Source: Bilabrum cf. latius (lineage: Eukaryota). From it: 64,000 nt of DNA. Both the position numbers and the translations under genes were made by a program. This document shows positions 3,001 through 28,509 of this stretch, piece after piece. The first letter of the stretch is position 1; each line of letters opens with the position of its first letter. Under the pieces are notes generated by a model. The model saw only the letters and a program-made list of their open reading frames with translations. It did no database searches and was not told the DNA's origin. Location: NCBI GenBank assembly GCA_965178125.1, contig OZ237757.1, forward strand, positions 434,001-498,000, written 5' to 3'.

Positions 3001-6000
3001 ATCCGAGCGAGGTTTCTCGTCTTGTTGATTTGGCCTTGCGGCAGGCAAACCAAGTCGAACTGTTCCACGTTCGAGCAAACCTGGTTCGACGTGCTATGCT
3101 CCACTGGGGAGGGCCTGCAAATGGTTAGGTGGGCATGTGGCTGCGGCAAGCCGGCGCAATCGAGGAGACAAAGCCGGAGAAATCGTTCGTGCCCGGGAAT
3201 AGTACAATCTCTGCTAAGCAAGCAGACTAGCCCGCGAACGGGTCTTATGTGTACATACCAACAGGTCTCGTCAAAACCGTGCGAGACAAGCTCAAACGTT
3301 CCAAGATTCGCCTGTAGAATGCCAAGGAGGAGAACGTGTACAAGCTATAGGGGTGCGTGCCTGTGCAAACGCTTGGATTCGTGGTTCACCTCATCGCTAG
3401 TCACGTGCCTTGCGTCGTCAAAACGTACTCTCTAGGCAAGAGTAAAACTATGTCGCGCATTGTTGTACGTTCCGCCGCAGTGCAAAGTGCAGTACTTCAA
3501 CTGCGGTGCGTAGAGAGGGGCAACATCAATCTAAGAAAGGATGAGAAGCCCATCACCGGGGTGAATTCGGTGTTCGCTCGACACGACGTCATGGAATAGT
3601 ATGAGCTCAGGAAGGCGGTTGAGGTCGCTCTCAAGGGGCGCATGCCACTGAGCGACGAGAAGCTCCCTATCCAGGCCTGGATCGAAGGCAAGCGGTTAGA
3701 TGTACCGCTCGCAGCTCTGTCCGAGCGTGAGCGCGATTCGATTTCATTACAGACTCAAAGCGGGAAGGCTTCTGCATCCGCAGCAGCAGCTTCAGCAGGG
3801 GTATCCCAGCCGATTAAGACGCTCCCACCTCCTCCAGAAAACAGAAGTGGAATGTTCGGACTTGCCGGCAATGATTCCGACAGGTCGCGGGCGCTGCAGT
3901 AGATTGCCCACACACTCAGCGATTTGGAGGGTGACTTCCCAGGCGTAGACGGCCAGGCCAAGGATCTCTGCATCAATCCAGAGACAGGGATCGGGTCATT
4001 CCTAATTCGAATGAAGAGATCAGACTAGTGCATGCGGCTTGTGCGACACTTCAACAACGCGGATTTGTGCGGACACTTGCAGTGCAGCCCGGCGAGGGCG
4101 CAATGCTGGATCACAGCCTAGCTGAGTGTGCCGGATGGAGCTGCCCCTTTCGCAGCGAGGGCCTTCTAGTCTGCCTCTGGGCTGTTTGAATACGACGATG
4201 CCAGTGTTACTGTAGCCCGACGCATGCACGGTCCGGCATCAGGGGCCGGTGCTGACGAATCGAAGATCGAGCCGCCATCCGGCGATGTTCCCGAATTTGA
4301 TTCGTGTCAGGAGGCGTCTTTAGTCGCAAACATGCTTCAAATTGGCTGCGTGGAGCCCTGTGTGGAGATGCCCAGGGTGTTTGTGTCTGGATTGTCGAGT
4401 GGCGGGGAAGATAGTCCACTAGAGTAGAGCGTTGGGTTCAATATGTCCACCACGAAGCAGTTTGCTGAGCTATACAAGCACTTGGAACGCGCTGCAGGAG
4501 GCATCCCTCTCATGCAGCTGCTGCAGTTTGTGTGGGACAAGCCACAAAAGGACATTGTTGCCCAGCTGCTCATGCACATGCACGCAGCCACAAGAGACAA
4601 GCCTCTGCGAGACGTGTTGAAAGATTCGGCAACGGCTGCATCTGTGTGGCTACAATTGGATGATCCTGTCTTGGAAGAGCATGCAGGTGACGCGGCTGCA
4701 AGCAAGCACCAGTCAACCTCAGACCTCCCGCAATTGCTATATGGCACACTTGCAGCCGCCACACACTTTGCTCAGTGCCTTGGTCGTGCGCTGGAGGACC
4801 GCCAGTGGGGTGCGGCCGTCTGCTCAGAGGTCGCCTTCTCCGAACTTGGGCCAAGGGTAGCGCGCTACCTCGCTGGTCTTTTAAACTATGGGACTAACAC
4901 TGTCATGCAGTTAGTTGGCAGCAAGGATCCGGAAAAGTTCGTGCTCTCGCGACAAGAAGTGATCGACATCCGCAAGTCAATTCAGGCGATGGACCCGTCG
5001 TCGCCCTCCGATGAATTCAATCCGCTTGCCCCCGTGTGTTTCAAGCACAGGCGAATGATCGGACTGATGGTAGATCTACAGCTGAAGCCAAAGAAGGTGC
5101 TTCGTTTTGTCGGCAGAATCCAAGACCATTGCGACAGGGCGAGGAAGGCGCTGCTCGAGAGACTCATGGACGGCGTGGGAGGCCAGACAGCAGCCGATGC
5201 AACTCTAGGCGATGGCTCAGTCTCGAACAGACTTGAGTTTTGTGAGGTGACCTACGAGCAATTCAAGTGCACGGACAGTGATCTATTCATGCTACGGAAA
5301 AGAAGAGGGCGGCACGCTGTAGTTGAGCCTAGCGGCGTCCGCAAAGGCGCTTCTCTGCCTGCAGAATCAGGTCTTGCTGACGATTCCCGCTCGCTTGCCA
5401 TGTTCATTGGCACTGCTGCTTTGCGTGACCAGGTGTCTGGGATGGATTCTTAGCAACAAACGGAAGTATTGGTTCCTGCTCCCGAATGTGACGTGCCGGT
5501 GCCTCTTGGTCTACTCGCTGAGGCCGTGGGCGTCCAGTCGATCGCGCGAATCGCGGGGATGGCGCTTCTAGGTGCTGCTTCCGGGTCTTGCGGCCGCTTG
5601 CCCTTGCCCACTACCCCACCGGTGGACCGCGGTCCAGCAGCTGGGGCTGAAGCCGGCGCTGGCGCAGCAGGTCATTCGCATGACCTCGGGCTCCTCCAAG
5701 AGCAGCTGCAAAGAGTTGCTCGATGCCCAGGGAAGCAGTGTGGTCGGCTGTGCATGTTTCCCCCCGAGATGGATTGTTCTGACATGGGGTGGCACAGGCT
5801 GGAGGGGAGGTGTCCCCACGCGGACTGCGAGGTGAAGTCATGGTGCATCAAATGCGGGTGGCAGGGTGAGAAGATGCACCCAGGCCCGTGCAGTGCAGCA
5901 GAGCTGTGGTCGAGGAGAGAGGAAGCTGGCAGGCTGGTGCAGCAGCAGTCAAGAGAGACTGGCCTGGACATTCGCCTCTGTGGCAATCCAGACTGCGATC

Positions 6001-6284
6001 ACGGCATCGAGAGGCGAGACGGCTGCAATCACATCACCTGCCTCAAGTGCAGATGCCACTTTTGCTACTCTTGTGGGTACCCCTGGGGCCGTGGAGCAAC
6101 TAGTAACGATGTGTATGCACACTTCAGAAGTAGTACGACTCGTCGGACGGGTTGTGTTACGCATTCGACTGACCACACTCCCTGGGGCAGCTTTAGCCAG
6201 GAGGAGCTCACCCGGCGGCGAGGAGGTGTGCATCTTCCGAGCGGGAAATCGCTAGAGCCAGCTGCTGTGCTTGGAGAGTGCTGA
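3..6284 (+). CDS. DEAH-box RNA helicase fused to C-terminal IBR + RING2 (RBR E3 ligase) domains; 5' end lies outside the window
   Basis: ORF pieces 132, 582, 2334, 2679, 3357, 3642, 4224, 4443 and 5469 share one frame and are separated only by TAG (17 counted); ends TGA 6282-6284. Motifs: LIVASAT (III), VLVFVPG (IV), ATRVAESSITLPNVACVIDCG (V), QRRGRTGR (VI), IBR-like CPGKQC..CPHADC..WCIKC..HPGPC, RING2 CGNPDC..IERRDGCNHITCLKCRCHFCYSC. Confidence 0.9.
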
Positions 6285-8739: not shown

Positions 8740-9014
8740 ATTTTGTCGAGGGTGTCGGATCGAATCTTTTGCTGGTGCAAGCAACAAGCAACCTCTGCCA
8801 GCCTTGCCGCGTTCGTGAACTTCGATGGAACCATGACGAAACGACGAAACCGAAAATACCTATTTGGTGCCAGATTTGGTACGGCGAGAGCGGAATTGGT
8901 ATTCAACACACATCCTGAATTGCATATTATCTGTACTCGTAGCCTATTGGAACTCAAGGGTCGCATTTACGCTCCCAGTTCCCCGGGTTTCGACTCAACG
9001 CACACATCAGCAAA

Positions 9015-12000
9015 ATGTCATCTGCGGCATCAAAGCAAGCTGGAGACGGCGCAAAGGTGGCAGATGACGCCGGAAAGAAAAATGAGAAGCCCAAACGTCG
9101 TGTGGGTTCATCTGATGTCAGGGTGGCTACCGCTGGGTTGCTGCAATACTCACCCGAGGGCAACCGCTTCACAATCGAGAAGCTGCTCGGCAAGGGCGCG
9201 TATGGGGCCGTGTATTCAGCCAAAGACCGCGCAAGCCCAGGCAAGGACTAGAGCAAGAAAGTTGCCCTGAAGCACGTCATGAACGCGTTTACGTCACCAA
9301 CCGACGCTAGGCGCATCTTCCGCGAGATCCACGTGATGGCTCATTTTGATCACCCGAACATCGTGAGGCTGATGCGAGTCCTGCGGCCACAGGACAGCAA
9401 GATCAAGGATTTTGTCCAGCTTTACTTGGTCACGGAGGTAATGGAGACGGACCTGCACCGCGTGATCCACTCGAGGCAGGACCTGACGTCTGACCACATC
9501 TCGTACTTCCTGTACCAGCTGCTCTGCGGCCTCAAGCACCTTCACTCGGGGGGAGTTCTCCACAGGGACCTCAAGCCTAGTAACCTGCTCGTGAATGCAG
9601 ACTGCCAGCTGAAAGTGTGCGATTTCGGCCTGGCCCGAGAGAGCGAGGCCACCGTGAGCACTGCCCTGACCGAGTACGTCGTCACTCGCTGGTACCGCGC
9701 CCCCGAGGTTCTGCTCAGCGGGGGCCACTACAAGGAAAGCATAGACGTGTGGAGCGTGGGATGCATCCTCGGGGAACTGCTCCTCCGCCGCCCCTTGTTC
9801 CCTGGAGAGAACTACCTCCACCAGCTGCAGCTCATCATCCAGACGCTGGGGTCACCTGCCGAGGAGGACCTTCATTTCATTCGGAACGACGCCGCAAGGG
9901 ACTTTGTGCTCAGGCAGCCGCACTCGGACGGAATCTCGTACAGCCGGCTGTTCCCTCACGTGCGTGGACCGTGTCTCGACCTCATTGCCAAGATGCTGGT
10001 TTTCGATCCCGACCAGAGGATCAGCATCGACGAGGCATTGGCACATCCCTTCTTGGCGCGAGTCCGCGCCGCGAGGAAACACGTGTGCGAATACTCGGCC
10101 CCCGTCAAGCTCAGGATGAGGCACAGGCTAAGAAAGATGAGCATCGACCAGATCCGCGACACTTTCGCTGCGGAATTCATGACTCCGGGGAGGTGGGACG
10201 GCGTTGTGCCGGCGGCAGACAGGCAGCACGCGCCCTCCCGCCCTCTTCCACCCGCCCCACCCTCGGGCGCTACCACTGGAAGCGCCAGGACGGCGGGATC
10301 AGCCGCTGGAAGCGCGCGGGGCCGCGTGGGCCAGCAGCGCTAGAGCGGCACTGTGGTTGACATGACCAGAGGCATGAAGGCAGCCACGGGCTAGGGCACG
10401 CAAGGAGGTTCCAGCAGATCTGGCCGAACGGAAACTGACGATGACTTCCACGATCTGGAATCGCCTTCGACAGGCTCAGCAGACGTCGGGATAGACGGAG
10501 CCCATGGTGCAGCGAGGCCGCACAGGCGATCTGCCTCCTCCTCGTCCAGCTCTGCGGCGGTAGCGGCCAAGGCAGCCACCTAGACCGGGCGGCCCCCGGC
10601 CGTTCTCAGTGGAACTGCGGTGGGTGCGTCCGTGCCAGCGACCGGGAGCAGTCGTTCGGTCGCTCGTGCCACTGCCGAGGCATACCTGAGGCGGAGAGCT
10701 GCACCAGGTGGTGCTCATGTAGGTGCTACTGCGGGTGCTGCTGCAGGTGCTCATATGGGTGCTCATGTAGGTGCTACTGCGGGTGCCAAGAGGGGCGCTG
10801 TGTCTGGGGTGCTGTCGCCCGAGGATGAGGAAGAGGACAGCAAGCCCGTGCGTAGGGGTGCTGGGAAATCAGCCGTTCGAGAGGCCTATCGGAGTCATGG
10901 GGCAGCCGCCGGTGCCGCAGTGGGTGCAGAGAGTGGTGTCAGTGAAGACATTGATGATGACGATGACGACGATGACGACGAGTTCTTCGATGCCGTGGGA
11001 GAGGATGAAGAAGAAGAAGACCATGCTGGTGGGGCGGGTGCAGCAATGCAGCACGGCGCTACAGCTGTTGGGGATGCTGGTCGGTAGTACCCGGCCGGTA
11101 CCGTGCCGCCGGGTGCAGTGCATGGTGGTGCGAGGCACCACCGCGGAGGGAAGGGCGGCTCCGGCTCCGGCTCCGGCTTCTACAACGCGGTGGACGATTC
11201 GGTGAAGGAGGCTCAGACGGACGAGTATTGGAGCAGGGCGCAGCAGCAGCTCGACCAGGTGCTACAGAAAGCCAGCTCGAGCGGACTTGGGCTCCGTAGC
11301 AAGGTGCCCACTGGTGCGATCGGGACAGCTGCAGGCCCCGCAGGAGCGGCAGCCGGTGGAGCTGCAGGTGGCAGTGCGCTGCAGTCGTACTAGTACGACG
11401 GTACGTCTGCAGAGTATAGGGAACAAGGGTCTACGCTCGTGCAGGTACCGGAAGAGCTCAGCACGCCGGAGCACGAGAAGCCGAAGCCGGTCGACGGGCG
11501 CAGGGGCCTGGGCTTATCTGCCGCGGTAGGGGGCGCACCCTCGGGCTTGGTGTCCTTGCAGGCGGCTGGCACTGGGCATGCACCCATCGCTGGACGCAGA
11601 GCGCAAGCTGGTGCCAATGCCGGCACCGGTGCCAAGCGGCCCGGCCGGCTGGCGGCTCCGGATACCGGGGAACAAATCACCGGCCCTGGTGCCGGGGGGT
11701 CGCACTTCGTGGCGGCTCCTGCGCGAAGAAACGATGGCTTGCCTAGATCCGTCTCGCCGATGCGGTCGCCCACCGGCAGCGGAAGCGCAGCAGTATCGTC
11801 GAAGCCATTCGGGGGATCCTCGTCTTCGTTGGCATATGCCCGTGCCAGCAACAGAGGGGCAGCGCCAGGCTCCAAGGGCAAGAGAGTCCCAATAGTGCCT
11901 GCCCCGCGCGGCATGGGGTCACGGTTACCCGGCGAGAGGGGTTCCGCCGGTGCCGTCAGTGCAGTGCACCCAGACGCGCTCAGCAGGCAGGTGATGGAGG

Positions 12001-12437
12001 CGGCTCGGTAGGGGCACTCGGCGAGGTCGGCGGGTGGCGGCGCGGCGCCGGTGGCTGGTTTCGCTGACCCGGGCGCTGGTCCTGTGGGCGAATCGCCGCG
12101 CAGGCAGGGCACCGGCAGGGCAGGCGGAGCCGCACAGCACTCGTCACCCGCTCTCTCTCATCGAAGCGGTGGAGGAAGAGGAGGAGGTGGATCGAGCCAG
12201 GGCAGTACTCCCGCACGCAGGGGCCTCGGGAGCGGTGGGCGAGCTGCGCTGGCATCTGGCGCGTCTGCCGGTTTCACGCCCTCTCCGGCTGCGTCAACGC
12301 GCGGTTCAGCCGCGTCTACCGCAGGGCCCGGCTCTGCGCACAGCGAGGCAGGCAGGAGGCAGGCCCGGTCGTCGCTGAGCAGCGCCGCTGCCAGCATGCT
12401 TGCGGGGACCGGCTCGCCCAGGCTAGGAGGCCACTGA
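9015..12437 (+). CDS. MAP kinase (TEY activation loop) with a long Gly/Ala/Ser/Asp low-complexity C-terminal tail
   Basis: GKGAYGAV loop, then TAG 9249, then VALK, HRDLKPSNLL, DFGLAR, TEYVVTRWYRAPE; all downstream fragments in the same frame broken only by TAG (7 in total); ends TGA followed directly by TAA. Confidence 0.92.
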
Positions 12438-12552
12438 TAAAGAGATAATTGAATGTCAGTCTGTTTTACACGAGTAGACACAGGCTGAGTACCCTTGAAT
12501 CCGATACTTGCCAACTGTAACACCTCAACCGCCCTGCCGTCCGCGAGCCACA

Positions 12553-15040: not shown

Positions 15041-15344
15041 CTTGTAAAAACTATATCAAGCCTGGAAGATGCGAGTGACCCTGCCGCCGTCTGCCGCGAT
15101 CAGGCCAAACACGTGGATGCTGTAAATGCAACGGAACAATTAAATTAAATCATATTCGCGTCCGTTTGCGACGAATTCGGCTTGGAGCTGGACCTGAACG
15201 GAAATGGTACTGCTATTATTAGCATTCGTGCAGCATTGTTGTAGCCTTCAGGGAGCTGACTGTTGATTTGGTAGCATTTAATTCGACTTACGGCCCATTA
15301 AGGTCATTGCTGCTTGAGTTTCAGCTTCTGCCAAGGATCTCAGC

Positions 15345-18300
15345 ATGGCGCACCCGGGAAGAACCATCATGCGTTCTGTGCCGACACTAGAAAGGGTTGG
15401 ACCATGGCGACGGCTGAAGGACAAACAAGGGCGGGCATTCTACTTCAACAAGGAGACAAAGGCTAAACAGTGGCAGAAACCGGCAGAAGTGGCCGAGGCC
15501 GAGCGAAGAGCTGCAGATATGAGACCAACAGCTCCACCTAGATCTGCTGCGCCCCAATTTTTACCAGCGGGAGCCTCTGCTAGAGCAGCTCTTGGCAGCT
15601 AGCAGGTCCCGCCTGGCCCGTTACCCGTAACCCGCATGCTTGGCAGGCGATCGTCCGGTGGGAGCCAATCGAGCGGAGCGGGCAGCGCCGCGCCAGGAGC
15701 GCCAAGAAGCTCTGCCGCTGGAGGAAGGGCACCAGGAATCGGCAAAAGCTCGTTGCCGTTGCCATCGCGAGGAGTATCGCAGGGCGCAAGCGGAGCAGCG
15801 GGATTGCGGCCCATGCCCGCGACCGGCGCTCCCATCACCAAGCACGGCGACTGGCGCTTAATACCTGCGAAAACCCCGGATGCAAAACCATTTTGGTATA
15901 ACAAAGCAACAAAAGCGAAGCAGTGGGGGAAGCCAGCCGAAGTGCTTGCGGCCGAGCAGCAGCAATCGCAGTCGCAGGGATCCGCAGCTGGCGCAGCCCC
16001 GAGCTCCCCGCCCATGAGGCGAGCACCACAAGCGCCGGCAGCTGCCAGCGGCACGACCGCTGGATTGCCAACAGCCAGCTCTCTTGGAACTGCCACAGGG
16101 CCAGCTACCGTACGGCTACCGTCCTCTGGCAGTGGCAGCGCTGCCCCATCGCCTGCTCCCATCACCAAGCTTGGTGATTGGCGCCTCATTCCCGCAAAGA
16201 CACCCACCGGCAAGCCGTTCTGGTACAACAAAGCTACGAAAGCAAAATAGTGGGATAAGCCTGCCGATGTTGCGTTAGCCGAGCAGCAGCAAAAGGACGC
16301 GCATGCAGCCGGAGCAACTGCTCGGGGAGGAAGCGAGCAAACAGCGAGTGCAGGCCAAAATGCAGGCGCGAAGCCAGCACCGGCACTTGAGCCAATCACG
16401 CGCCTCGGCAATTGGCGGCTGATTCCGGCCAAGCAGCAGGGTGGAAAGCCGTTCTGGTACAACAAAGAGACGAAAGCGAAGCAGTGGGGCAAACCAGCCG
16501 AGGTCATTGCAGCCGAGCACGCACGGGCGCGAGAGCAGCAAGCCGCGGAGTCATCATCTGCACCGGTTGCAACTGCATTATCCCCGTTTCCCGCGGCGGG
16601 TCCAGTGGCAGCGGAACCTGTGCAGCCTGTCACGCTGAACAAATTCGAGGGCTGGCGTCTCATTCCGGCCAAGAAGGAAGGGGCAAGGCCGTTCTGGTAC
16701 AACAAGGCCACCAAGGCCAAGCAGTGGGACAAGCCAACGGAAGTGATCCAGGAAGAAACCAGGCTGACTGCACAAGCCCAGGCAGAGGCCGACAGCGCAG
16801 CCCAGAATGCAGCAGCAGCAGCAGCAGGAGCAGGGAACACAGGGAACGACGAAGGCAGCGGCAGCGGCAGCGGCGCTCCTGCGTATCCCGGTTCCGACCT
16901 GAGTCACGCGCCCACCGACCCCGGTGTGCCGTTCCCACCCCCCTATGACCCCCCCGTGCACCTGGGTGAGGATCCAGACGAGGCAGCTGACCTGGCGGCA
17001 GCGGCAGTGAGCTCCACTGACGTGGCACCACTCAGAAAAGCAGGCGACTGGCGAATGATCCCGGCGAAAACCGAGGGCGGTAAGCCGTTCTATTACAACA
17101 AGGCCACCAAGGCCAAGCAGTGGGACAAGCCCGTGGAGTTTCTCTCGGCAGAGGAAGAAGCGCTGCAGCAGGCAAGGCAGCAAGCGGCTGATGCCGCGAG
17201 ACAGCGCGTGCAAGATGCCAGAAACCAGCAGCGAGAGCTGGACGAGGCAGCTGCGGCGATCGTCACAGCGAAGCTTGCAAGGGGGCAGCCTGCCACGGGC
17301 TGGCGCGCGGATCGCGACCCCTAGAGCGGGTACGTGTTCTACCGCAACGTGCTGTCTGGCGAGAGGCAGTGGAACAAGCCAGCGGAGCTGGAGGGGCCCG
17401 TGGCCGGCATGCCGTCCGTAGATGCCGGTGCGCCTGCCCCTGTGGCTGCCACAACACCCAAGATACCGACTACCGTCACCCCCCAGCACACCATAGTCAC
17501 TACTAATCCTGCTTCGGACGAATCTGACGGTGCAGCTGGTGGCGATGGCAGCGGAGACGGGGTCGGTCAGGACGATGGCGCGAAGCATGGCCATGGCGAG
17601 GACGATGATAAGGAGGAGGATGCGGCCAATGAAAGCGGCAAAGGCCAGGGTGAAGCTGCACCGGCGACCAAGCAACCGGCCAGGGTTACCCTAGTGTCGC
17701 CGAAGAGTGGCAGCAGCAAGAACCTAGGCTCCTTGGCGGCTGATGAGGGCGACAGTCCGGCATACGGCAGTCACACGCACGCAGCCAGGTCGGGAGGCCG
17801 GCTTGCGGCTGCCGTGAAACGATCCAGCGATGCCTCGGTGCGGGAAGCGCTAGATCAGGAGCATGATCGCAAGGAGAGAGACGCAAGCGATGCCCTGCAC
17901 GCTGCGACCGCCAGTGCCCGTGCAGCCGAAGGAGCTGCAGATGACTCCCCGCCGGAGCAGCTGGACGAGGAGGCGGCTGCTGCGGCACACGGCTAGGGAC
18001 AGGGAAGCATCGCCAAGGAGTTGGGCGAGTCCTCGCGAAGCCAGAAATAGGACCTCACCCGCAACACGGGCGATGACCCCGCTACGGGCGGTGCCGATGC
18101 TTCAGCAACGCAGGATCAAGATGACGAGGGCAGCAGGGGCCACGGGCAGTCGGACTCGCTCATGATGGGAGGTCCGGCCAGCGGGCACGGCGGACCGGTA
18201 GACGTGGCTGTGGTGAAACGCCCGGCGCTGAGGCCAGTGGCATCCGGCCTTTTTGCACCTGAAGACGACCACCTTCGTCTCGAAGGGCACCTGTACAAGC

Positions 18301-21300
18301 AGTCCAAGAGCCTGCTTCGGTTATGGCTGCGCCGCTACTGGGTCACGGAAGGTCCCCTCCTGCTCTACTGGAGGGAGGAGGAGGACCGGCACAAGCAAGG
18401 CGCGGCCGGCCTGCCGCAAGCCGCCATTGACCTGCGCTTCTGCACAGACCTGCGCCTCGTGGCAGACGACCCGCTCGCCTTTGAGCTCGAGGGGACAGAG
18501 GTCGGTGTGTACAAGCTGAGGGCCTCAACGAACCAGGAGGCGAGGCTTTGGTACAGCGGCTTGCTTTGCGTGCTCTACGAGTACGGGTGCTTGGCACAAG
18601 CGAACAGTGCGTTGGGGCACAGGCTGGCCTACCGGTTCGGCTGGCAGCCCGGTGACGTCGGTGCGGCGATTCGCGCGTATGAGGAGCAGCAGCTCGCTGG
18701 TGCTGCCGATGCAGGAGCGGTTGCTGACGGCGCCGATGGGGGGCAGGACGAGAAGGACGGCTCATCAGGCATAAGGGGTGGCAAAGGGGAAGAGGAAAAG
18801 GAGGGGCCGATGACGCCGGGTGGCTCCCTGCTCCGGGCCACAAAGTCGTTCCGGCAGCGCGGCCTCGCGGACATTGTGGGCCAGAGGCGGTCGCCTGTAG
18901 GGAAGCAGGGGGTCTCGTCAGGCCTGGGTCAGGGAGGGGCCGCGGAGGAAGAGGCCAGGGCGATTCGGGAGGAACAGCAGCGCGCGATGCAGCGCGCCAT
19001 GGCCGCCCTTGGCGGCACAGTTCACGAGGATGGTGCGGGGAGCGATGCCGTTGGTGGGTCTTCCATTGGCCAAGGGTCTGCAGCTGGAGGCAGCGGCGCG
19101 ATGCCCTTCGATGGACCCGAGCTGCCTTGGCCCGAGGAGCTGGACCCGGAGGCCTCTGGCCCCAGCACTGCCGGCGAGAGTGGGGCCGAACGGCGTGCCA
19201 GGGTGAGCATGGCTGCAGGTGCGGATGGTGCTGCGGACGATGGTACTGGTGATGGCGCGGCCGACTGGGCCGCAAGAGAGAAGACGGGCGGCGGCTAGGC
19301 CTCCTCGAGGCGGGGGCGTTCAGCCCAGATCGGGGGCAGGGCATCAAGTGCCCCGTCACCCACGACAAGAGGGGGGGCAAGAGAGCCAGACCGTGCCCTT
19401 ACCGGGCTAGCATGGCTCGCCTCCCAGCTCAGGAGCATTGGGCAGGCGCAGGCGAAGGAGCCCCCGGCCACGATCGACCCAGCGGACGTGCAGCTACCGC
19501 CTGCGTCCAGGCCTGTATCCAGGAGCAACCCAGCGGCAGCGGCAGCAGCGGGGTCGCCAGCTCGGCCACCCCTAGTCCTCCGCGCCGACGGGACTGACCC
19601 GCAGGTGGAGTCACCACGCCGCGCCGACAACCTGGGCCAGGCCGGCGGCTTCGGCGCGATCGGCGGAAGCGCACGAAATGGTGTTACTGTGGTGGACAGG
19701 ACGGGCGCAAGCCCCTCCTCCACCAGCAACGATAGGGAGGGCTCCTATAGCGCGTACGCAGGCCGCATCGACGACGAGGGCGACGGTAGGGCTGGCAGCA
19801 GAGACAGCGCGAGTCGCCTGGTAGGCGGCGGCTCCGCTGTTCGTTCTCCAGGCCGGTCGCCCCAGCACCGCGCCGGTGCTCTGGGTCCCGCAGCCGCTGC
19901 CGTGCTGGCACAGATGTCGGCCAATCCGCCGGACCACTCCCCACGATCCAGCGCTGGAGCCCCCTTGGCTGCCGAGCCACTATCGCGGCAAGACCTGTCG
20001 CAGCAGTCCTCCCCCGGCGGCCCGTTGGGTGCACAGAGCGCAGCAGTTGCAGCCTCTGCACTGCGGGGCTCCGATGACAGTCCCAGCCGGGACAGGACGC
20101 AGGCGGGCTCGTCTGCGGTGCGTCTGGAGCAGCCTCCCGCCGGTTTCTCTGCTGATGCAACTGTCGATCGAGCCGCAGATGATGCGGGCCAGGATGCGGG
20201 AGCCGCCAGCAGCCAGACTGGCACGCCATCCAAGGCAAGCGGCAGCCCCGGCAGCAGCAGCCCGCACAGGACCCCGAGGCGTGTGGGAGCCGCCGGTGTT
20301 GACGTGCCCGTGCGGCCCGCCAACGCCTCACCCATCCCGCGTGGGCTAGTCGAGCTGCAGTGCAGGCGGGCAGTGAGGGTGCTCCGGACCCAGGCGCCTG
20401 ACCCCGACGATGGAGAGGGTGACGACGAGGGACTCGACGTTGAGACGGGCGAACTAGCCGCGCACAGATCTGCGGAACCGGTAGATCAGCTTCTGCGGAG
20501 GGTGATGCCTCCGTCCGGAGCTGAAATTGCCCACATGCGTGCCCTCACAGACGCAAGGAGCAGCAGGGCAAGGAAGGACGCTGCCATGCTGGCCTCGGCA
20601 ATCCACACGGCGGCGTGCCGGCGCATCCAGATCGCAAGGTCGGGAACGAGTCGTGGCGATTCTTCGGGGCTCACCACTGACGCATCGGCTGCCAGCGGGG
20701 AGGCAGGGAACGCGTCGAGCATCGTCGCCGCTGCGCGCGGCTCTGTGCCAGACGCGTTCGCCCGGGGCGGCAGCGCTGTCCTCGACGTAGACTCGTACCG
20801 TAACAGGATACTGACGCCGCATGTAACCACGGGTACGGGTGAGTCCGGGGCTAATGGTGCCTCGAGCTCTAACAGGAACGGATTCGCATTCGGTGGATCG
20901 GGAGGCCGCACGACGGGCCGTGCCACTGCCAGCATGACGGCTATGGCTGGAACCACCAACCGGGCCGAAGCCATGTCCCGGAACGACGCACTACCGCCCG
21001 CTCTGCTGCCACCCTCGCGAAGTGGCGGTGGGGCTGCTTCAATGGACGACCAGGTCTCCTTGGCAACTGGCGGTGGGCTTGGCGACACTATGCATAGCGT
21101 GGGAGGCATGACGGCCTCTGGCGGGCTGGGCCTGTCAGGCACGTTCCGGTCCACGAGCGCCCAGGCGGGCGCGCGCTCCGGTGACAATCAGCAGCAGCAC
21201 TCGATGCCGGCCGACCCGCTGCAGCAGCAGGCCGTCGCTGGCGCAGCCGTGCTGTGCTCTCGCGTGAGAGATACGCCTGGGCTGACCATTCGGCTGCTGC

Positions 21301-24017
21301 GGGCGCTGAGCCCGCTGGAGCGGCCTCGTGCCGCGGTGGCAGTGGTGGCCGGTCTCCTGGACTCGTCATGCGCCGATGAGGCACGTCTGCCCGCCTTGTT
21401 TGCTGCCGCGACTGATGCGGGTGATCTCGGCGACGAGTTTGCGACTAGGGGCACGTGGGAGTCCTCGGTGCTGTGCAGCCTGGCGCGCGCCATGTCGGCC
21501 AGGCCAGCGGTGGCAGAGTTCGTGGCGCGAGTGGCCGTGCCCCTCGTGTCGCAAGCTGTGCCTCGTGCCCTTCGACTCTGGTCCACCGGTGGTGGGCGTG
21601 GTGGTGGTGGTGGAGGAGTGCATGGGCAGCGCACCGCCCGTCGAGATGGGCTATCCAATGGCCACGGGGACCCAGGGCATTCTGGCAGTGCAAGCGGCAC
21701 GCAGGAAAGCAAAGAGGAGGGCGAGTTTGCTGACGATGGGGAACTCGATGCATCGTCCTCTCTGGAGGCACGGAGGGCGCGGACGTGGGGCGCCACGGGT
21801 ATCTTGGGCGGGGCGCAGGCGCCCGCTGCAGGGGAAGAGGAGGGCGACGATGAGACTGAGCGGGCGAGAAACGCCGCCATCCGCACCCTGTGCATCTGCT
21901 GCTTCTCCCACGGCGGAGGCGGTGGTAGCCACGTGAACGTGATGGGCGCGGGTGCTGACGTGCCTTTCGAGCTGGCACAGTGCATGGCGGCTGCAGAGCA
22001 GCGCGTAGGGGGGCGACTGGCCGCTGCCATCCTCGTGGCTGCCGTGCTGCAGCCCGCCGTTGCTGCTGTTGCGGAGCACGCGCCCAGCATGGAGCTGAAG
22101 GGGGCGCTCATGGGCCTGCTAGATGCCTGCATGGACGCTCTGTGGGCGTGGCAGGAGGCCAAGGATGACGGCAGTTTGGGCGGTGCTCTGGCGGTTGCTA
22201 GGTCCAAGCATCTGCCGGTTGTACCGCTGGTGTTAGCGGCACAAGACGCCGCCGACGCGGCTAGAATACGGGCTGTGCGAGAGCTGCTTCGGGAGGCGGG
22301 GGAGATGGGACTGGCAGGTGACGACGGAGCCCCTGCTGGCAGAGGTGCTGTTGCGAGCGGAGGCAGTCCCCGGAATCAGGGAGGACGCAGCCAGCAGAGC
22401 GAGAAAGACGTGCTGGCAGTTCGTGCTGCGGCGGCGGTGGAGGCACGGCGGCAGCTTCGCAGGCGGCTGGAGGCACGGTGCGTCGCCAGCGGGGATGGGC
22501 TCGGGCTGCTCGCAGTTGCGGTGCAGCGGTGCGCCGGCAGCATGGTCGGCGGTGCACTGCTGTCCACAGACGTACGCGAGTGCGCGTAGGCGGTACGCAG
22601 CTGGCTGGCATCTACTGCTGGTGGCAGTGGTGCTGCATCGAGCCAGGGGGCGGGATTCGAAGCGGCGGCCTCTGGGTACATGGGCCGGGGTTCGCTGGAT
22701 ATGGGGGCAAGCAGCTTGCAGGCGAAGCACGCTGCGTGGAGTCAGCTGCCCATCGTGGGACCCGGGGCAGGCGCGGACAGCTCAGAGCATTCCGACCTGC
22801 AGCTCAGGCTGACAACGTACGGCGTCATTCCCGCGCAGGTGTCTGCCCGTGACCCACCACGGCTGTCGGAGTGCATCGGCGTTGGCATAGAGGAGGCGGA
22901 GGAGGCCGCAGAGGCTGGCGTGAAGGGGGCAAGCGAAGATGGGGAGGATCTCGAGTACGAGGGCAATGACAAGGGCAAAGGCAAGGGTGCTGGCGACAAG
23001 GAGCATGGTGTGGATTCCAATGGCGGTGCTTCCAGCGGGCACTTGGCCGTCGGCGTGGATGCAAGCCTGCGCCGAGCCGCCAGCGGTCATTTCGAGATGG
23101 CGAGCGCGTCGGCAGCCGAGGGCAGGCGTGCAAAGGCAGTTCTGGAGCGGCTGCGCAGAGCAGCCGTGGAAGCTAGCCGGCAGGTGCGCCCGCCGGGCGG
23201 TGGTCCCCAGCTTGAAGACGTCCGTGGCTTTGATGCCGCGCGAGACGCTGTTCTCTTCCTGTCTGCCTCTTTGGAGCAGCTGGACGACACTGGGTCTGAC
23301 CTCCTTGCCGGCGAGAGGGGCAGAGAGGAGCTGGAGAGTCCTCGTCGGAAGGCGGTCGAGTGGTCCATGCAGGACGGCGGCGCTGCTGGCAAGGAGGCCT
23401 GCACGTCGGCGGAGCTCGGGTGCTCCGACGCTGCGGACGAGGTGCTGCGATGGTGCGTTGGCAGCGCGCTAGCGACGGCCCTGCGGCTAAGGGAGGTGCT
23501 TCGTGAAGCTTCGATCGATGCGTCCGAGAGGGCTGAATCGGCGCAGGCGGGCGCCGCTGCCGTGCTCGAGCTGGCAAGGGGGGGCGGGCCTGCGGAGGAT
23601 GCGTGGAGGTTCGTGGGCGGCGGGCTCGGCCTCTCCTTTGGGGAATCTTCGTTGCGGGCTTCCTTCGGCGCAGGGAGCGTAAGAAGTGCGGGAAAACCCG
23701 CGAGCAGCGCTGCCGGTGCTGGTGCTGGTGCTGGTGCTGCAGGAATCGCTTCACCGGGGCGCGCCACGGGCGATCTCGTCGGAACACCCCAGAGGAAGGG
23801 TGGGGCTGACGGGGGGTCAGCTGCAGGTGATGTACAGGATTAGTTTGGGAGCATGGGCGGGGACGGAGAGCAGAGCGATGATGACGACGACGATGACGAT
23901 CTCACCCTGGGCATGCTGATGGGCAGCATTTTTTCGCCGTACAAGCTCGAGAGGCAGCAGCTGCGTGACAGGGAGCGGGCTGCAGAAGGGAATGATGGGA
24001 GGCGTGATGATCTTTGA
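15345..24017 (+). CDS. ~2,890-aa protein with seven WW domains, a PH domain and a helical C-terminal region
   Basis: Fragments 15345, 15636, 16605, 17334, 18162, 19488 and 22680 are one frame broken only by 8 TAGs; ends TGA 24015-24017. WW consensus W-x(n)-F[WY]YNKxTKAKQWxKP; PH: LEGHLYKQSKSLLRLWLRRYWV..LLYW..IDLRFC..YKLRAST..ARLW. Confidence 0.88.
15405..17381 (+). repeat. Seven dispersed WW-domain coding repeats
   Basis: Near-identical units such as TGGTACAACAAGGCCACCAAGGCCAAGCAGTGG separated by Ala/Pro/Gly linkers. Confidence 0.9.
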
Positions 24018-24645
24018 TGTGGAGTAGCACAAAGGCTACGTTGTCTTACATTCCTGTGTCCACTTGCGCATTTAGCCCGTCTTCATACGATCGTCGTCAC
24101 CCGGCTGCCCAAGCACGCATATAGTCCAGCGATGCCTGTAGCACAAATAAGACCCACACCGTAGGTGCCGCTCGCCCAACAACGTGTGAGAGAATGGAAT
24201 ATACTCGAGAGTGTCCATGATTGCACCAAGCTGCAGGTCGGACACCTGCGAGAATCCTCGCCACGTTTTCATGTTCGAATGCTTCGATACGGGTTGTGAT
24301 TCGTGTGTGTGTTCCCCATCTGGATCTCGACCAAACCTGGAATGCAAATTATTTGCTGTGTACTTGTAGTACTATAATGGCCAGCGAACATCGTAGGTGT
24401 GGCATGTAGTTTGGATTGCACGTAACGCTTGACAATTATGTTAGTCCCAGGCGATGCAACGGCACCTGGGACATTGAGCATTCACAGTAGACATGGTATG
24501 CTTTCAATTTGACATTGATGTTCACCTTTCAATTAAGTGACGTCCTTCGCAGGATCGCAGCCCTACCAGTTGCTCTGCCTGCCTACATCTGGTCGCACGT
24601 TCTCGTCAAGAAGTTCGTCCAACGATATACTAATTGAGCATAGAT

Positions 24646-27600
24646 ATGGATAGTCAACAAAGCAAACGCGACGATGGGGTGGCCCGTGACGCACCGCACA
24701 CGCACACTGACCAGGCTGCTGGGCTGTCGCGGAGCGCAGACCCATCAAGAGCTTCTCCAGTTGCTGCTGCCACTGGCAGTGCCGCCACGTAGAGTCTTGG
24801 AAGCGGCGAATCTCGCTACTTGGGCCGCGAGCAATTATCAATGGAGCCGCACGACGAGCCACCGCCGCGCGATGCTCAAGCGACAACGATCGCCCCATCA
24901 GTTTACGGGTGCCAGGGAGGACCAATGGCCGGGTATGCACCTGCCACTGCCAGGCAGAGTGCGAGCGCTGGCGAGTCGCGGGAATCGGGGCAGCTGCACG
25001 CTAGCAATGCACGGACTAGAACCCAGTTACCACCAAGTTCATACGAACCCGCTGCCGATGGTGGTGATCCCACATCGTGTCGGCCTGCTGTTGCATCGTT
25101 GGAACCGTGGCAGCTCTCTGATATTACGATGCCAGCGGGCCCGTGGCATCCCCAGGTCCAGACGGGGCACGCCGGGCATCGCCCCAGACCTCCACCGGAT
25201 CCGCCAGCCCCACGCCCGCCAGCCCCGGCGCCACCACCACCGCTTCCGCGACCAGCAGCATAGTCCCGTGCTGGGCCAGGTCAACGATCGTCCCTTGCTG
25301 GTCCAGAGTCGCCGTTACTCGGACTGCCTCAGCCTGGCGGTACGGCTGGAGGGTCAGCACCGTCTTGGCACGATCAGGTATATGCTGATTTAATGGATGA
25401 TGCATGCTATCCTTCAGATATGATCAAAAAGTCAGGGATGGGCATGGCCCGTAGGCAGCTCGAATTTGAAACGGCCAAGCGCTGGGTGGCGCTGTATCCT
25501 TCCGAGCACGACGCGCGCCGGGCGAGTTTCGCTGATATCGGAGCGGGGTTCCGAAGCGACGTCATGAAGGCATTCAAGCACTTTCCCAAGGTAAGCATGG
25601 TCTGGCGGGAGGATCAGCCCATCGGATTCACTTCTGGAGATGTGGCCGCTGTTCAAGAGAGCACAGGCATCGAGTTCATCGATGCGGGTGGTCTTGCAGG
25701 TGGGCTCAAAGCAATTCACAGAGAGTTGGGCCTCTTTCTAAAATTTGCGCTGGACCAGAACGGGTACTACAAGAGCTCTCGCATGGCTGCCAAGGCAGCC
25801 AAGCGGGAGGCGGCGGCTAGTCGGTGGGTGCACGCGATGGACAGCGTGCACGTGTCAACGCCTCTGCAAGAATGCGTCGATTTAACCGTTCAGCTCGCCG
25901 GCGGTGGGGTACGAGTGGTACGCGTGCAGGTATTTGCAAGTGTCAGCATTGCCGGATACGATGCCTCTGAGCCATCAACGCTGGAATCAACGACCATGCG
26001 CGTGGGCTCCTCGGATGGTGGGTACTCTGTGCACGTCGACAGCGAGCAGATCGACAATGTCGTGAAGCCACTGGCAAAGAGATTCTTCATCGTGCCCTAC
26101 AATCGAACCGCTGAAGTTGTTATTAGGCACAAGCTGGAAGCTGGCACAACTAGTGTCGAGAGGAAAGCTCCGGGTGTGCGAGCTGTTGGCGGGGCAAGCG
26201 ACGGAAAATGTGCCGGTGTAGACAGCCACATTGCTGCTGCGGAAAGTCATACAGCAGCCTCAGGGGCTGGTGATTGTTCCAGTCCTATCGATGCTAGTAA
26301 GCAGACAGTCAAGCATGCACCATGTGAGTTGGGTTTCGGTGCTGATCAGGCTGTCAATGCAGACGACATACTTACAGCAACCAAATTCTATGCAGGAAAG
26401 CTGATCGACCACAGTATGTCGCCATACTATCACAAGGTAAATGTGATCGAAGACAGCGAGCAACAGCTTTTCTTGCCGTTTGACGTGGAGGTGCACCAGC
26501 TGGCGAGTGGGCAGCGGATGGTGCTGGACACGCACCGGCTGCTGATCCCGGACATCCCGTGGATTGACTGGATGGAGTCTGAGGAGGCCAGACCAGTTGT
26601 TTGGATGGCTCTGTCAGGCTAGATGCCGCTCATGCTGCAAGGGCAGCTCGGCGGATCCCCAGGAACCAAGAGTGAGCCCGATGTGAGCTAGCTGGCGACA
26701 CAGATGCAGGAGTGGGTGAAGGGGATAGGAAGCCCTGAAATCCCAACAGAAGTGTAGCGAAGCATTCATACGCTGTCTTTTGACCCAGCCAGCATGCGAC
26801 TGCATCGAGACTCGGGTTGTGTGGTTGCACCGTCGTCGACCCGAGGCAACGCACCCGAAGCGGTGGCCATTATAGCATGCCCTCTTTGGTATTTCTGCGG
26901 GTACCTTGCCCTTTCCTGCCTTCTTCCCCCCGAGGCTGCACGCTGTCTCGCCGAGCTCTGCGGCGGCACTGAGATAGAGGGGCTCTGCCCCGACCTCATT
27001 ATGTCTGGACGAGACAAAGGGGGCTCGAAACGGAAAGCGAGGCAGGCAATAGGCATGCTCTATGACAAGGCCCGAACGGTTGGTCCCGACCGATTCAGTG
27101 ACGAGATCGCCTTGGAGGTGTGCCGCCACCCAACGTTTGATCCAGACTGTGATGCCAGAGCACTGAGATCTGTGCTCAAGAGGACGATGCACTCAATGGG
27201 TCTCGGCTTGAGGCACGCCCGCTTGCTGCTTGCAGGACGAAACTGCGACGAAGTGTGCGCTCGACGCGTCCAATTCGCACTGGTTGGGTCTCATAATGCC
27301 TGCAAGAGGGCGGCGGTGCAATCTCTGCAGCGCATGATCCATGATCACATGGACAGCTCGACTGAATCAGGGAATCGATCGGGCAGTGCGGCAGGATTAG
27401 CCCAAGCTGCTTGCCTGTATGCATCGAAGGGCATCGTCACCAGAGCCGACGACGCTTGTCTTCAAGAGCCCGCTGGTGCCGTTGGCGGGGCTGCTGGTGG
27501 GGCTGCTGGTGGGGCTGCTGGCGGGGCTGTTGGCGGGACTGCTGGTGGGGCTGTTGGCGGGACTGCTGTTGGGGCTGGTGTTGCGATTCCTGGTAGAGCT

Positions 27601-28509
27601 GATGCTCCAGAGTGGTAGCTCCGGGCAGTTTCTGTAGCCACTGAAACATCGTGCGTTGGCGTCCAGCTCGCTGCAGAGGGCGGCATACACACGAAGACAC
27701 CTGCCCACGGCGCTGCTCAGCTCATCGAAGAGCTGGATCACATCAGGCGAGTGCCCGGTGCAGACATTCTCCCGACCTTTTGCTCGCTTGCGTCCCTCGC
27801 GACTCTCGTGGCTGGAATGCCCGTGAGCGAAAGGGATCAGGTGAGCCAAGTTCAAGATGCGGGTCATGCCAATGCCACTTCTGGAAGCGTTGGCCATGAC
27901 GACGTTCATGGTGATAGTGATGACGACAGGAGTTTGGAAGCTTTGCCAAGGCCCCTCTCTTCCTCGTTAGAGCTGGCACAGCAGCTTTCGATTCCCAATA
28001 GTTCCGCTTTCAGGATGCGAGCGCGTGTCATTAAGGCCGGGTAGCTGAGGCAGATGGGCCAGCACGACATGGCACACTTGAGGGCTGATCAGGGCATGCG
28101 GGAATAGTACTGGATTTCTGCGATCACGGTGCTGGCCGAGATACTGCAGGAAACAGGCGATTATGCGGGGGCTCTGTCGTGGTACGGCATCATTTTGGAG
28201 CACGAGGCTGACCTGCTGCCGATCAACGCCATGTCGTCTCTGTACATTTACAAAAGTATGGCGGACTGCTAGATCCAATTGAAGATGTACCCCGAAGCTA
28301 TACGGTCCCTGAAAGAGTTCATGCCGTTTCACAGGCAAAGGTTCGGCACGGGGGATCCGATCCACCTGAATGCTTTGGCGAAGCTGATCCATTGCTTTGG
28401 CGAGACACAGCGGTATGATGAAGCCATTCCGGTGATTGCTGACCTGTGGGAGCTGCAGAAGATTGCTAAACCGCTCGATATTTCGGGTCATAGAACTAGA
28501 TTTGTATAA
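24646..28509 (+). CDS. Large hypothetical protein with C-terminal TPR-like helical repeats
   Basis: ATG 24646 after an upstream in-frame TAA; fragments 24820, 25393, 26794, 27751 and 28279 in one frame with 9 TAGs; TPR-like LAEILQETGDYAGALSWY, MADC*IQLKMYPEAI, FGETQRYDEAIPV; ends at TAA 28507-28509. Confidence 0.7.
27476..27578 (+). repeat. 12-bp coding tandem repeat encoding (GGAA/GGAV/GGTA)n
   Basis: About 8 copies of GGTGGGGCTGCT-like units. Confidence 0.85.

What the first reader, a model, noticed from the sequence alone, without database searches (positions are those of the whole stretch)
16176..16262. WW repeats show TAG in the invariant Gln column
Seen: six of seven WW domains end in Q-W-x-K-P with Q encoded by CAG (KAKQWQKP, KAKQWGKP twice, KAKQWDKP twice, GERQWNKP). 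The third repeat reads AAA GCA AAA TAG TGG GAT AAG CCT (KAK*WDKP; TAG 16248-16250) and the frame stays open for another 7.7 kb. This assigns the amino acid without external data: CAG and TAG behave as synonyms.
Basis: seen in the sequence. Interest (0 to 1): 0.85.

Follow-up and report, generated by a model that had tools for sequence, protein, structure and literature searches.

The report
TAG read as glutamine, eukaryote
This stretch comes from a GC-rich single-celled eukaryote that reads the stop codon TAG as an amino acid, almost certainly glutamine, while keeping TGA and TAA as stops, which is a rare but already known kind of genetic-code change.

Summary
A 2,899-codon frame (15318-24014, +) encodes seven WW domains. 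Six end in Q-W-x-K-P with CAG; the third has TAG at 16248-16250. The frame has 8 TAG but no TAA or TGA, where about 46 are expected.

It is not a local oddity: 104 in-frame TAGs lie in 19 long frames of the window, and these carry ordinary eukaryotic domains. Assemblies that behave like RNA keep the T at 16248.

At TAG sites compared with paralogues or close relatives, the partner residue is Gln at 8 of 11. Gln beats Glu by 9.6-11.5 bits. More distant homologues show no Gln preference.

TAA is not a sense codon. It ends one gene here and the MAPK orthologue in a related metagenome contig that also reads TAG as sense. A more distant relative uses TAG as a stop.

So the code is TAG=Gln with TAA and TGA as stops, the pattern of NCBI table 15. 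It is known in a few ciliates and one fornicate. This lineage is unnamed, and its nearest named proteins are stramenopile. The decoding tRNA and eRF1 could not be examined.

The parts
15318..24017 (+). Frame of the WW-PH protein: 2,899 codons from stop to stop, then TGA at 24015-24017. The probable start is the ATG at 15345. It has 8 in-frame TAG and no TAA or TGA.
   Evidence: Pfam finds WW (E 1.7e-32) and PH (E 4.6e-07). Contigs of X5 and X6 cover 15257-16727 and 17102-24022 with 0 differences.
15390..15491 (+). WW repeat 1 (…KAKQWQKP…), Gln codon CAG at 15468
15843..15944 (+). WW repeat 2 (…KAKQWGKP…), CAG at 15921
16170..16271 (+). WW repeat 3 (…KAK[TAG]WDKP…). This is the repeat of the finding.
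16248..16250 (+). In-frame TAG (codon 311) in the column that is CAG (Gln) in the six other repeats
   Evidence: Unchanged in the contigs of X1, X5, X6 and X8.
16404..16505 (+). WW repeat 4, CAG at 16482
16644..16745 (+). WW repeat 5, CAG at 16722
17040..17141 (+). WW repeat 6, CAG at 17118
17289..17390 (+). WW repeat 7 (divergent, …GERQWNKP…), CAG at 17367. It holds a second in-frame TAG at 17322, in the variable loop.
18279..18563 (+). PH domain (residues 988-1082)
   Evidence: Pfam PF00169, E 4.6e-07. Weak PDB matches to the PH domains of PLEKHA5 and PLEKHA4.
15600..15602 (+). In-frame TAG, codon 95. The further in-frame TAGs of this gene start at 17994, 18048, 19296, 22587 and 23841.
3..6284 (+). 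Neighbouring gene that uses the same code: DEAH-type helicase with an IBR domain. It runs off the 5' end of the window, has 17 in-frame TAG and ends in TGA.
   Evidence: Relatives' fragments show Q at TAG 741 and 775 and K at TAG 1475.
8919..12440 (+). MAP kinase gene with 8 in-frame TAG. It ends in the tandem stops TGA TAA (12435-12440).
   Evidence: Compared with its orthologue in L001.
24634..28509 (+). Gene with a weak CLU-domain match and 9 in-frame TAG. It ends in TAA (28507); the sequence downstream does not look coding.
   Evidence: Pfam finds nothing in the frame that follows.
30795..33926 (-). GH127-like (DUF1680) gene, 10 in-frame TAG, ends in TGA
60211..61731 (-). Aldehyde dehydrogenase exon with 3 in-frame TAG. 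The TAG at codon 495 aligns with Q in a PDB aminoaldehyde dehydrogenase (3iwj) and with K in a chloroplast betaine aldehyde dehydrogenase (4v3f).

Best explanation
The window is nuclear DNA of a GC-rich (60%), intron-poor eukaryote. Its nearest named protein relatives are stramenopiles. In this organism UAG has been reassigned from stop to glutamine, and UGA (the usual terminator here) and UAA still end translation.

The TAG at 16248 is therefore an ordinary synonymous variant of the CAG found in the same column of the other six WW domains. The gene makes one 2,890-2,899-residue WW(x7)-PH protein.

Shown here:
- TAG sits inside coding sequence throughout the window.
- It is kept in assemblies that behave as RNA.
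- It pairs with Gln in close relatives.
- TAA and TGA never occur inside these frames.
- TAA terminates genes.
- At least one related organism (L001) shares the code, and a more distant one (L002) does not.

Inferred, not shown: UAG is read by a cognate tRNA-Gln with anticodon CUA, which by wobble rules does not read UAA. This is the logic laid out in PMC11687900, of which I read passages. It is further inferred that eRF1 has lost UAG recognition but keeps UAA and UGA.
For: 1. Reading TAG as sense raises the longest frames from 1,097 to 2,900 and 2,094 codons. The number of frames of at least 500 codons rises from 3 to 18. Reading TAA as sense changes nothing.

2. Seventeen long frames hold 96 in-frame TAG; 16 end in TGA and 1 in TAA. 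With further frames the count is 104 TAG in 17,548 codons. The frames carry ordinary eukaryotic domains: protein kinase, Helicase_C with IBR, MFS, WW, PH, GH29, GH30, GT4, PCIF1 and aldehyde dehydrogenase. Several domain matches span a TAG, for example the MAPK kinase domain 85-379 with TAG 111, the CDK-like kinase 88-300 with TAG 235, and Helicase_C 130-253 with TAG 192.

3. In a coding-flank test with 80 codons on each side, 66 of 895 TAG triplets have coding-like sequence on both sides. The figures for TAA are 1 of 416 and for TGA 5 of 1,602.

4. X5 and X6 contigs skip two CT..AC (minus-strand GT..AG) introns at 14482-14575 and 14759-14845, which the DNA contig of X1 retains. Their depth drops between genes. 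They cover 15257-16727 with 0 differences, so the T at 16248 is in the transcript.

5. Residue identity. The WW column is CAG in 6 of 6 paralogous repeats. In well-aligned MAPK context against L001, TAG pairs with CAG or CAA at 4 of 5 sites. Helicase TAG 741 and 775 pair with Q in the 90%-identical fragment P0275. GH127-like TAG 150 pairs with Q in the 77%-identical fragment P0122. In total this is 8 Q of 11. Gln beats Glu by 11.5 bits on these sites and by 9.6 bits on all 22 aligned sites.

6. TAA is a stop. If TAA were Gln in the CAA:CAG proportion (168:498), about 32 in-frame TAA would be expected for 96 TAG; none connects coding stretches. The L001 MAPK orthologue has 1,178 codons and 10 TAG and ends in TAA at the orthologous place.
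Against: - No tRNA gene lies in the window or in L001, and no genome is held. The decoding tRNA and eRF1 are therefore untested.
- More distant homologues do not show Gln at the window's TAG sites. The 49-51%-identical GH127-like relatives P0123 and P0284 have S, E, T, Y, A, L, R (and T): 0 Q of 7 and 0 of 8 aligned sites.
- In a 150-sequence family alignment, no TAG column prefers Q. Site 473 is A in 81 of 103, site 150 is V in 24 of 51, and site 463 is D or E in 61 of 108.
- Single PDB alignments give R (helicase TAG 192), E (GH30 TAG 263 against human glucosylceramidase), and Q or K (ALDH TAG 495).
- Three of the 11 close comparisons are not Q (P, E, K).
- The run records do not list X5 or X6 as RNA, and the tool's own guess for X5 was 'probably DNA'. 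Their RNA nature is my inference from spliced contigs and uneven depth.
- Some TAGs lie very near frame ends: PCIF1-like at codon 951 of 953, and ALDH at 495 and 502 of 506. Termination at TAG in some contexts is therefore not excluded.
Confidence: 0.85

Rival explanations
1. TAG is a sense codon, but for another amino acid. Glutamate is the strongest alternative, then lysine. Leu, Tyr and Ser are known meanings of reassigned UAG or UAR in other eukaryotes.
For: - E is the partner at GH127-like TAG 136 in the 77% relative and at TAG 463 in the 51% relative.
- D or E dominates family column 463.
- E pairs with GH30 TAG 263 in human glucosylceramidase.
- K pairs with helicase TAG 1475 and with ALDH TAG 495 in a chloroplast betaine aldehyde dehydrogenase.
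Against: Gln is the partner at 8 of 11 close comparisons. The likelihood favours Q over E by 11.5 bits and over K by 14.7 bits on close sites, and by 9.6 and 16 bits on all 22 sites. The WW column is CAG in 6 of 6 paralogues although flanking codons have diverged synonymously. Q and E replace each other often, which explains the scattered E partners.
Confidence: 0.07
2. TAG is ambiguous. It is read as Gln inside genes but still terminates translation in some contexts, such as close to the mRNA 3' end. Context-dependent stop/sense codes of this kind are described for some ciliates.
For: The PCIF1-like frame has TAG two codons before its TGA. The ALDH frame has TAGs 11 and 4 codons before its TGA, and the first of these lies about where the PDB homologues end. 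This makes three TAG in the last 12 codons of 19 frames, against about 1.3 expected (my own estimate from the rate).
Against: Three against 1.3 is not significant (Poisson probability about 0.14). All 19 frames reach a TGA or TAA, and no gene needs TAG as its terminator. The base after in-frame TAG shows no strong bias: T 18, C 33, G 28, A 25.
Confidence: 0.06
3. The in-frame TAGs are not translated as written. Under this reading they are sequencing or assembly errors, pseudogene mutations, U-to-C RNA editing back to CAG, or low-level programmed readthrough.
For: None specific. A single CAG-to-TAG change in one repeat would look the same in a pseudogene.
Against: - There are 104 TAGs in 19 frames, while TAA and TGA are absent from the same frames.
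- The sequence is identical in contigs of four runs from four studies.
- Spliced, RNA-like contigs keep the T.
- A related contig from another source also has TAG-rich frames.
- Seventeen TAGs in one frame would leave no product at ordinary readthrough rates (inference).
Confidence: 0.02

Closest known systems
Nuclear code with UAG=Gln and UAA/UGA=stop (the pattern of NCBI table 15). Reported for the fornicate Iotanema spirale, the ciliate Protocruzia tuzeti and two lineages of phyllopharyngean ciliates (PMC11687900, passages read).
   Same: Only UAG is reassigned, and to glutamine. UAA keeps its stop function, so the two codons are uncoupled.
   Different: - The genome is 60% GC, whereas the paper gives 27.4-53.6% for Phyllopharyngea.
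- UGA, not UAA, is the main terminator: 16 of 17 frames.
- The window is a 64-kb stretch with genes on both strands, and its nearest named proteins are stramenopile, not ciliate or metamonad.
- Five literature searches found no stramenopile case.
- The organism itself is unnamed here, so identity with a published lineage cannot be strictly excluded.
UAR=Gln codes (NCBI table 6: many ciliates, Hexamitinae, some Ulvophyceae, Streblomastix, an aphelid; list taken from PMC11687900, passage)
   Same: A stop codon of the UAR pair is read as glutamine, and UGA remains a stop.
   Different: TAA is not a sense codon here. There are 0 in-frame TAA where about 32 would be expected, TAA ends genes, and only 1 of 416 TAA triplets has coding-like flanks on both sides.
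UAG-only reassignments to other residues: Leu in an uncultured rhizarian and some phyllopharyngeans, Ser in Scotinosphaera (PMC11687900)
   Same: UAG is uncoupled from UAA.
   Different: The residue differs. Leu and Ser score far below Gln at the compared sites; neither is among the six best.
TAG=Gln recoding in crAss-like and other phages (abstract of PMC9523058 in the listing; earlier scan note e1-1067872)
   Same: The codon and the residue are the same.
   Different: Those are phage genomes that switch code during infection of standard-code bacteria. This is a cellular eukaryotic genome with spliceosomal GT..AG introns and eukaryotic domains.
WW-plus-PH proteins of animals (PLEKHA5-type) and PRP40-type WW domains, as the closest relatives of the protein itself
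   Same: The domain kinds are shared. The best PDB sequence matches of the WW repeats are PRP40 homologue WW domains, and those of the PH domain are PLEKHA5 and PLEKHA4. That PLEKHA5-7 combine WW and PH domains is recalled, not tested.
   Different: Seven WW domains are separated by low-complexity linkers. The roughly 1,800-residue Ala/Gly/Ser-rich C-terminal part matches no family. Orthology was not tested.

Membership tests
Nuclear code UAG=Gln, UAA/UGA=stop (NCBI table 15 pattern) | In-frame UAG inside conserved protein-coding genes across the genome | tested here: met
   There are 104 TAG in 19 frames of the window, and several Pfam domain matches span a TAG. Only this 64-kb window and one related contig could be examined.
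Nuclear code UAG=Gln, UAA/UGA=stop (NCBI table 15 pattern) | UAG positions correspond to glutamine in homologues | tested here: met
   Q is the partner at 8 of 11 sites in paralogues and close relatives, and Q beats E by 9.6-11.5 bits. This is not seen in distant homologues: 0 of 7-8 in 49-51% relatives, and no Q preference in family columns.
Nuclear code UAG=Gln, UAA/UGA=stop (NCBI table 15 pattern) | UAA retained as a terminator and absent from coding frames | tested here: met
   No TAA lies inside the frames. TAA ends the CLU-like gene (28507) and the L001 MAPK orthologue. Only 1 of 416 TAA triplets has coding-like flanks on both sides.
Nuclear code UAG=Gln, UAA/UGA=stop (NCBI table 15 pattern) | UAG no longer used as a terminator | tested here: inconclusive
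   All 19 frames end in TGA or TAA. Three TAGs lie within 12 codons of a frame end. Transcript 3' ends cannot be read from contigs.
Nuclear code UAG=Gln, UAA/UGA=stop (NCBI table 15 pattern) | UAG present in the mRNA, not edited away | tested here: met
   Spliced contigs of X5 and X6 cover 15257-16727 with 0 differences. That these runs are RNA is inferred.
Nuclear code UAG=Gln, UAA/UGA=stop (NCBI table 15 pattern) | Cognate tRNA-Gln with anticodon CUA | not testable with these tools
   No tRNA gene is found in the window or in L001, L002, L003 and L012. No genome is held.
Nuclear code UAG=Gln, UAA/UGA=stop (NCBI table 15 pattern) | eRF1 altered so that UAG is no longer recognised | not testable with these tools
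   eRF1 is not in the window, and no genome is held.
UAR=Gln code (NCBI table 6) | UAA as well as UAG used as a glutamine codon | tested here: not met
   Reading TAA as sense lengthens no frame. There are 0 in-frame TAA against about 32 expected, and the flank test agrees.
Codes with all three stops also used as sense (context-dependent) | In-frame UGA and UAA inside genes | tested here: not met
   The 2,899-codon frame has 0 TGA and 0 TAA. Only 5 of 1,602 TGA triplets have coding-like flanks on both sides, which is at noise level.
WW domain (Pfam PF00397) | Profile match above the curated cut-off, plus the two signature tryptophans and the proline | tested here: met
   E 1.7e-32, 111.6 bits against a cut-off of 26.9, with 4 stretches passing on their own. 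All seven repeats show W…W-x-K-P.

The most novel reading that the evidence does not exclude
This is an independent and fairly recent origin of the uncoupled code UAG=Gln / UAA=stop in a clade with stramenopile affinities that has not been reported to deviate from the standard code. At least two organisms share the code: the window's organism and that of contig L001. A relative at 68% MAPK identity (L002) still ends genes with TAG. DNA and RNA-like data already exist, so the clade would be a GC-rich, UGA-terminating model for how UAG escapes from UAA.
Probability: 0.45. Interest if true: 0.7.

Novelty: new member of a known kind. Interest (0 to 1): 0.6.

Why it matters
UAA and UAG almost always change meaning together, and cases where only UAG is reassigned are few (PMC11687900, passages read). 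Each new one tests two ideas: that a CUA-anticodon tRNA can capture UAG alone, and that eRF1 can drop UAG while keeping UAA and UGA.

This case differs from the ciliate examples in base composition (60% GC) and in using UGA as the main stop. A standard-code relative appears to lie within reach, so the order of events could be reconstructed: loss of TAG stops, gain of the tRNA, change of eRF1.

There is also a practical consequence. Every gene model of this organism made under the standard code is cut into fragments. The database fragments P0272-P0276 and P0122 show this: P0274 and P0275 end exactly at the window's TAG 730 and TAG 886. The genome must be annotated with TAG=Gln.

Tried and rejected
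- Whole genome: none is held, so the tRNA(CUA) and eRF1 searches were impossible.
- tRNA scans of the window and of L001, L002, L003 and L012 found nothing. Rfam at gathering scores found nothing in the window.
- Sequencing runs: no RNA holder is listed. The RNA nature of X5 and X6 is inferred only.
- The MAPK TAG 111 lies in a variable insert and says nothing.
- Family-column analysis of the GH127-like protein (150 representatives) showed no Gln preference at any of its 10 TAG sites. The 49-51% relatives gave 0 Q.
- PDB alignments did not settle the residue. Helicase TAG 192 aligns with R. The N-terminal TAGs of GT4 were not aligned. GH30 TAG 263 aligns with E. ALDH TAG 495 aligns with Q or K, and TAG 69 with D or G.
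- The first version of the coding-flank test used too strict a threshold and was replaced after calibration.
- Naming the organism failed. The only named GH127-like relative is a choanoflagellate transcript at 49% identity. The MAPK search covered only proteins of 644-2,051 residues, so the 'stramenopile' placement rests on weak ground: 358 bits to oomycete kinases, against 324 bits to a PDB chain named mitogen-activated protein kinase 4 and 303 bits to mitogen-activated protein kinase 1 (ERK2).
- The protein atlas was not usable for the recoded protein.
- The scan's earlier findings held nothing on this genome or sequence.
- Supplementary tables of PMC11687900 (Codetta counts, GC table) were not opened.
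Full report
**What is in the sequence**

In the frame 15318-24014 (+), one search finds seven W-x-K-P endings. Six are preceded by CAG. The third is preceded by TAG at 16248-16250 (AAA GCA AAA TAG TGG GAT AAG CCT). Pfam recognises WW domains (E 1.7e-32) and one PH domain at residues 988-1082 (E 4.6e-07).

The next TGA or TAA in this frame is the TGA at 24015. In between lie six further TAGs, and one lies upstream. The frame of 2,899 codons contains no TAA and no TGA, where 9.5 and 36.7 are expected from window-wide triplet frequencies. It contains 8 TAG where 20.5 are expected. The other five frames of the same stretch carry 14-70 TAA plus TGA.

The repeats are old. Repeats 3 and 2 share 29 of 34 residues, and 20 of these use different codons. 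Of 12 invariant columns, 9 show synonymous variation, and CAG/TAG behaves as one more such column.

**It is a property of the whole window**

The window is 60% GC. Reading TAG as sense lengthens the longest frames from 1,097 to 2,900 and 2,094 codons, and raises the number of frames of at least 500 codons from 3 to 18. Reading TAA as sense has no effect. Reading TGA as sense only merges frames unspecifically.

Seventeen long frames hold 96 TAG; 16 end in TGA and one in TAA. With further frames the count is 104 TAG in 17,548 codons.

The frames encode ordinary eukaryotic proteins:
- a DEAH-type helicase with an IBR domain;
- an MFS transporter;
- a MAP kinase and a CDK-like kinase;
- a CLU-like protein and an ankyrin protein;
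- GH29, GH30 and GH127-like hydrolases;
- a GT4 glycosyltransferase;
- a PCIF1-like protein;
- an aldehyde dehydrogenase;
- a legume-lectin-like protein.

A codon-usage test was calibrated on these frames. With 50-codon windows, 80% of in-frame windows and 6% of off-frame windows score above 2. With 80 codons on each side, the test finds coding-like sequence on both sides of 66 of 895 TAG triplets, 1 of 416 TAA and 5 of 1,602 TGA. The model was trained on frames bounded by TAA and TGA, which favours this outcome somewhat. Even so, a TAA used at the CAA:CAG proportion (168:498) would give about 32 in-frame TAA for 96 TAG, and none is seen.

**Independent sequence data**

Eight runs from four studies hold the stretch. 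Contigs of four of them were laid on 8900-28600. X1 covers it evenly and without differences.

X5 and X6 have contigs that skip 14482-14575 and 14759-14845. Both gaps have CT..AC ends, which is GT..AG on the minus strand. X1 carries these stretches uninterrupted. The depth of X5 and X6 also falls from 56 and 37 inside the WW gene to 4 and 0.2 just after its TGA. I therefore take X5 and X6 to be RNA-derived. The records do not say so, and the tool's own guess for X5 was 'probably DNA'.

Their contigs cover 15257-16727, 17102-23703 and 18781-24022 with no difference from the window. The transcript therefore keeps U at 16248 and runs on to the TGA. This excludes assembly error and makes U-to-C editing unlikely, with one caveat: contigs drop rare variants.

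**Which amino acid**

A scan of metagenome contigs with the MAPK kinase domain gave L001, which is 87% identical in that domain. L001 conserves the MFS-MAPK gene order. Its MAPK frame of 1,178 codons has 10 TAG and ends in TAA.

I aligned the two orthologues with TAG masked as X. Where local identity is at least 0.65, TAG pairs with CAG or CAA at 4 of 5 sites and with CCC at one. The other 11 aligned sites lie in poorly aligned low-complexity sequence and give R, P, S, E, A, S, D, T, I, E and L.

Database fragments from close relatives add four sites. Helicase TAG 741 and 775 pair with Q in P0275 (90% identical), and TAG 1475 pairs with K in P0273 (84%). GH127-like TAG 150 pairs with Q and TAG 136 with E in P0122 (77%). 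P0274 and P0275 end exactly where the window has TAG 730 and TAG 886.

Together with the WW column, this makes Gln the partner at 8 of 11 close comparisons. A BLOSUM62 likelihood gives Q -28.5, E -40.0 and K -43.2 bits on these sites. Q leads E by 9.6 bits when all 22 aligned sites are used.

**Evidence that does not help, or points elsewhere**

The 49-51% GH127-like relatives have no Q at the 7-8 aligned TAG sites. In a 150-sequence alignment of the family, no TAG column prefers Q. PDB alignments give R, E, Q/K and D/G at four further sites.

I read this as TAG codons sitting mostly at positions that vary between distant lineages, so it is not evidence for another residue. It does mean that the assignment rests on close relatives and on one internal repeat.

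**TAA, and the spread of the code**

TAA ends the CLU-like gene at 28507. The following in-frame 219 codons score as non-coding and match no family. The MAPK gene ends in the tandem stops TGA TAA. The L001 orthologue ends in TAA.

L002 is 68% identical in the kinase domain and shares the YNAVD…YW C-terminal motif seen in alignment A1. Its three long standard-code frames (720, 624 and 408 codons) have no in-frame TAG, where about 10 would be expected at the window's rate. Two of them end in TAG. The code change therefore seems to lie between the L002-type and L001-type relatives.

**Who it is**

This is unresolved. The nearest named MAPKs are oomycete (53-55% identity, 358 bits) and brown-algal (51%). 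The same query scores 324 bits to a PDB chain named mitogen-activated protein kinase 4 and 303 bits to mitogen-activated protein kinase 1 (ERK2). The search was limited to long proteins, so a stramenopile affinity is only a weak inference.

**How it most likely works, and what is known**

According to PMC11687900 (passages read), a tRNA with anticodon CUA reads UAG but not UAA. UAG can therefore be captured alone. The paper lists UAG-only reassignment to Gln in Iotanema spirale, Protocruzia tuzeti and two phyllopharyngean lineages. It lists reassignment to Leu in a rhizarian and in some ciliates, and to Ser in Scotinosphaera.

The present case fits the Gln pattern. The tRNA and the eRF1 change are inferred, not shown.

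Five full-text searches found no report of a nuclear UAG reassignment in a stramenopile or a labyrinthulomycete. Subscription journals are not covered by that library.

**Verdict**

The kind of code is known. The lineage appears to be new, or at least is not in the searched literature.

Noticed in passing
window 13177-15083 (-): A gene for a legume-lectin-like protein (Pfam Lectin_leg-like, E 5.3e-08) has two GT..AG introns at 14482-14575 and 14759-14845. X5 and X6 contigs skip them and the X1 DNA contig keeps them. These are the only introns documented in the window.
   Followed up: partly
window 12435-12440 (+): The MAPK gene ends in the tandem stops TGA TAA. Another in-frame TAA lies 6 codons after the TGA at 56951.
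   Followed up: no
window 57135-57146 (-) and 60211-60250 (-): In-frame TAGs lie very close to the terminating TGA. In the PCIF1-like frame TAG is codon 951 of 953. In the ALDH frame TAG is at codons 495 and 502 of 506, and codon 495 lies about where the PDB homologues end. Whether TAG can still terminate in such places is open.
   Followed up: partly
window 25780-26575: Inside the CLU-like gene the summed contig depth rises about fivefold in X1 (111 and 76 against about 20). Many variant contigs at 85-95% likeness lie here, so the segment is repeated elsewhere in the genome or belongs to a gene family.
   Followed up: no
window 29621-30640 (-) and 60211-61731 (-): The GH30 frame covers only positions 1-235 of the 348-position Pfam model. 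The ALDH frame starts at model position 64. The missing parts probably lie in further exons that were not mapped.
   Followed up: no
L002 1-11298: This relative (MAPK kinase domain 68% identical, 56% GC) has long frames without in-frame TAG, and two of three end in TAG. It appears to use TAG as a stop.
   Followed up: partly
window 1690-1700 (+), helicase codons ~563-566: Database fragments P0272 (100% identical) and P0274 (98%) come from the same-length ENA contig. They break and diverge from the window's frame at about codon 565 (…GKWLGI / VAS against GHLDPNSG). This may be a small intron, or a difference between gene models or strains.
   Followed up: no
runs X1-X8: The same 8.7-kb stretch stands at full or near-full word share in runs filed under four different coded organism labels in four studies. 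The labels may name the same organism differently, or the organism may travel with others. This was not pursued.
   Followed up: no
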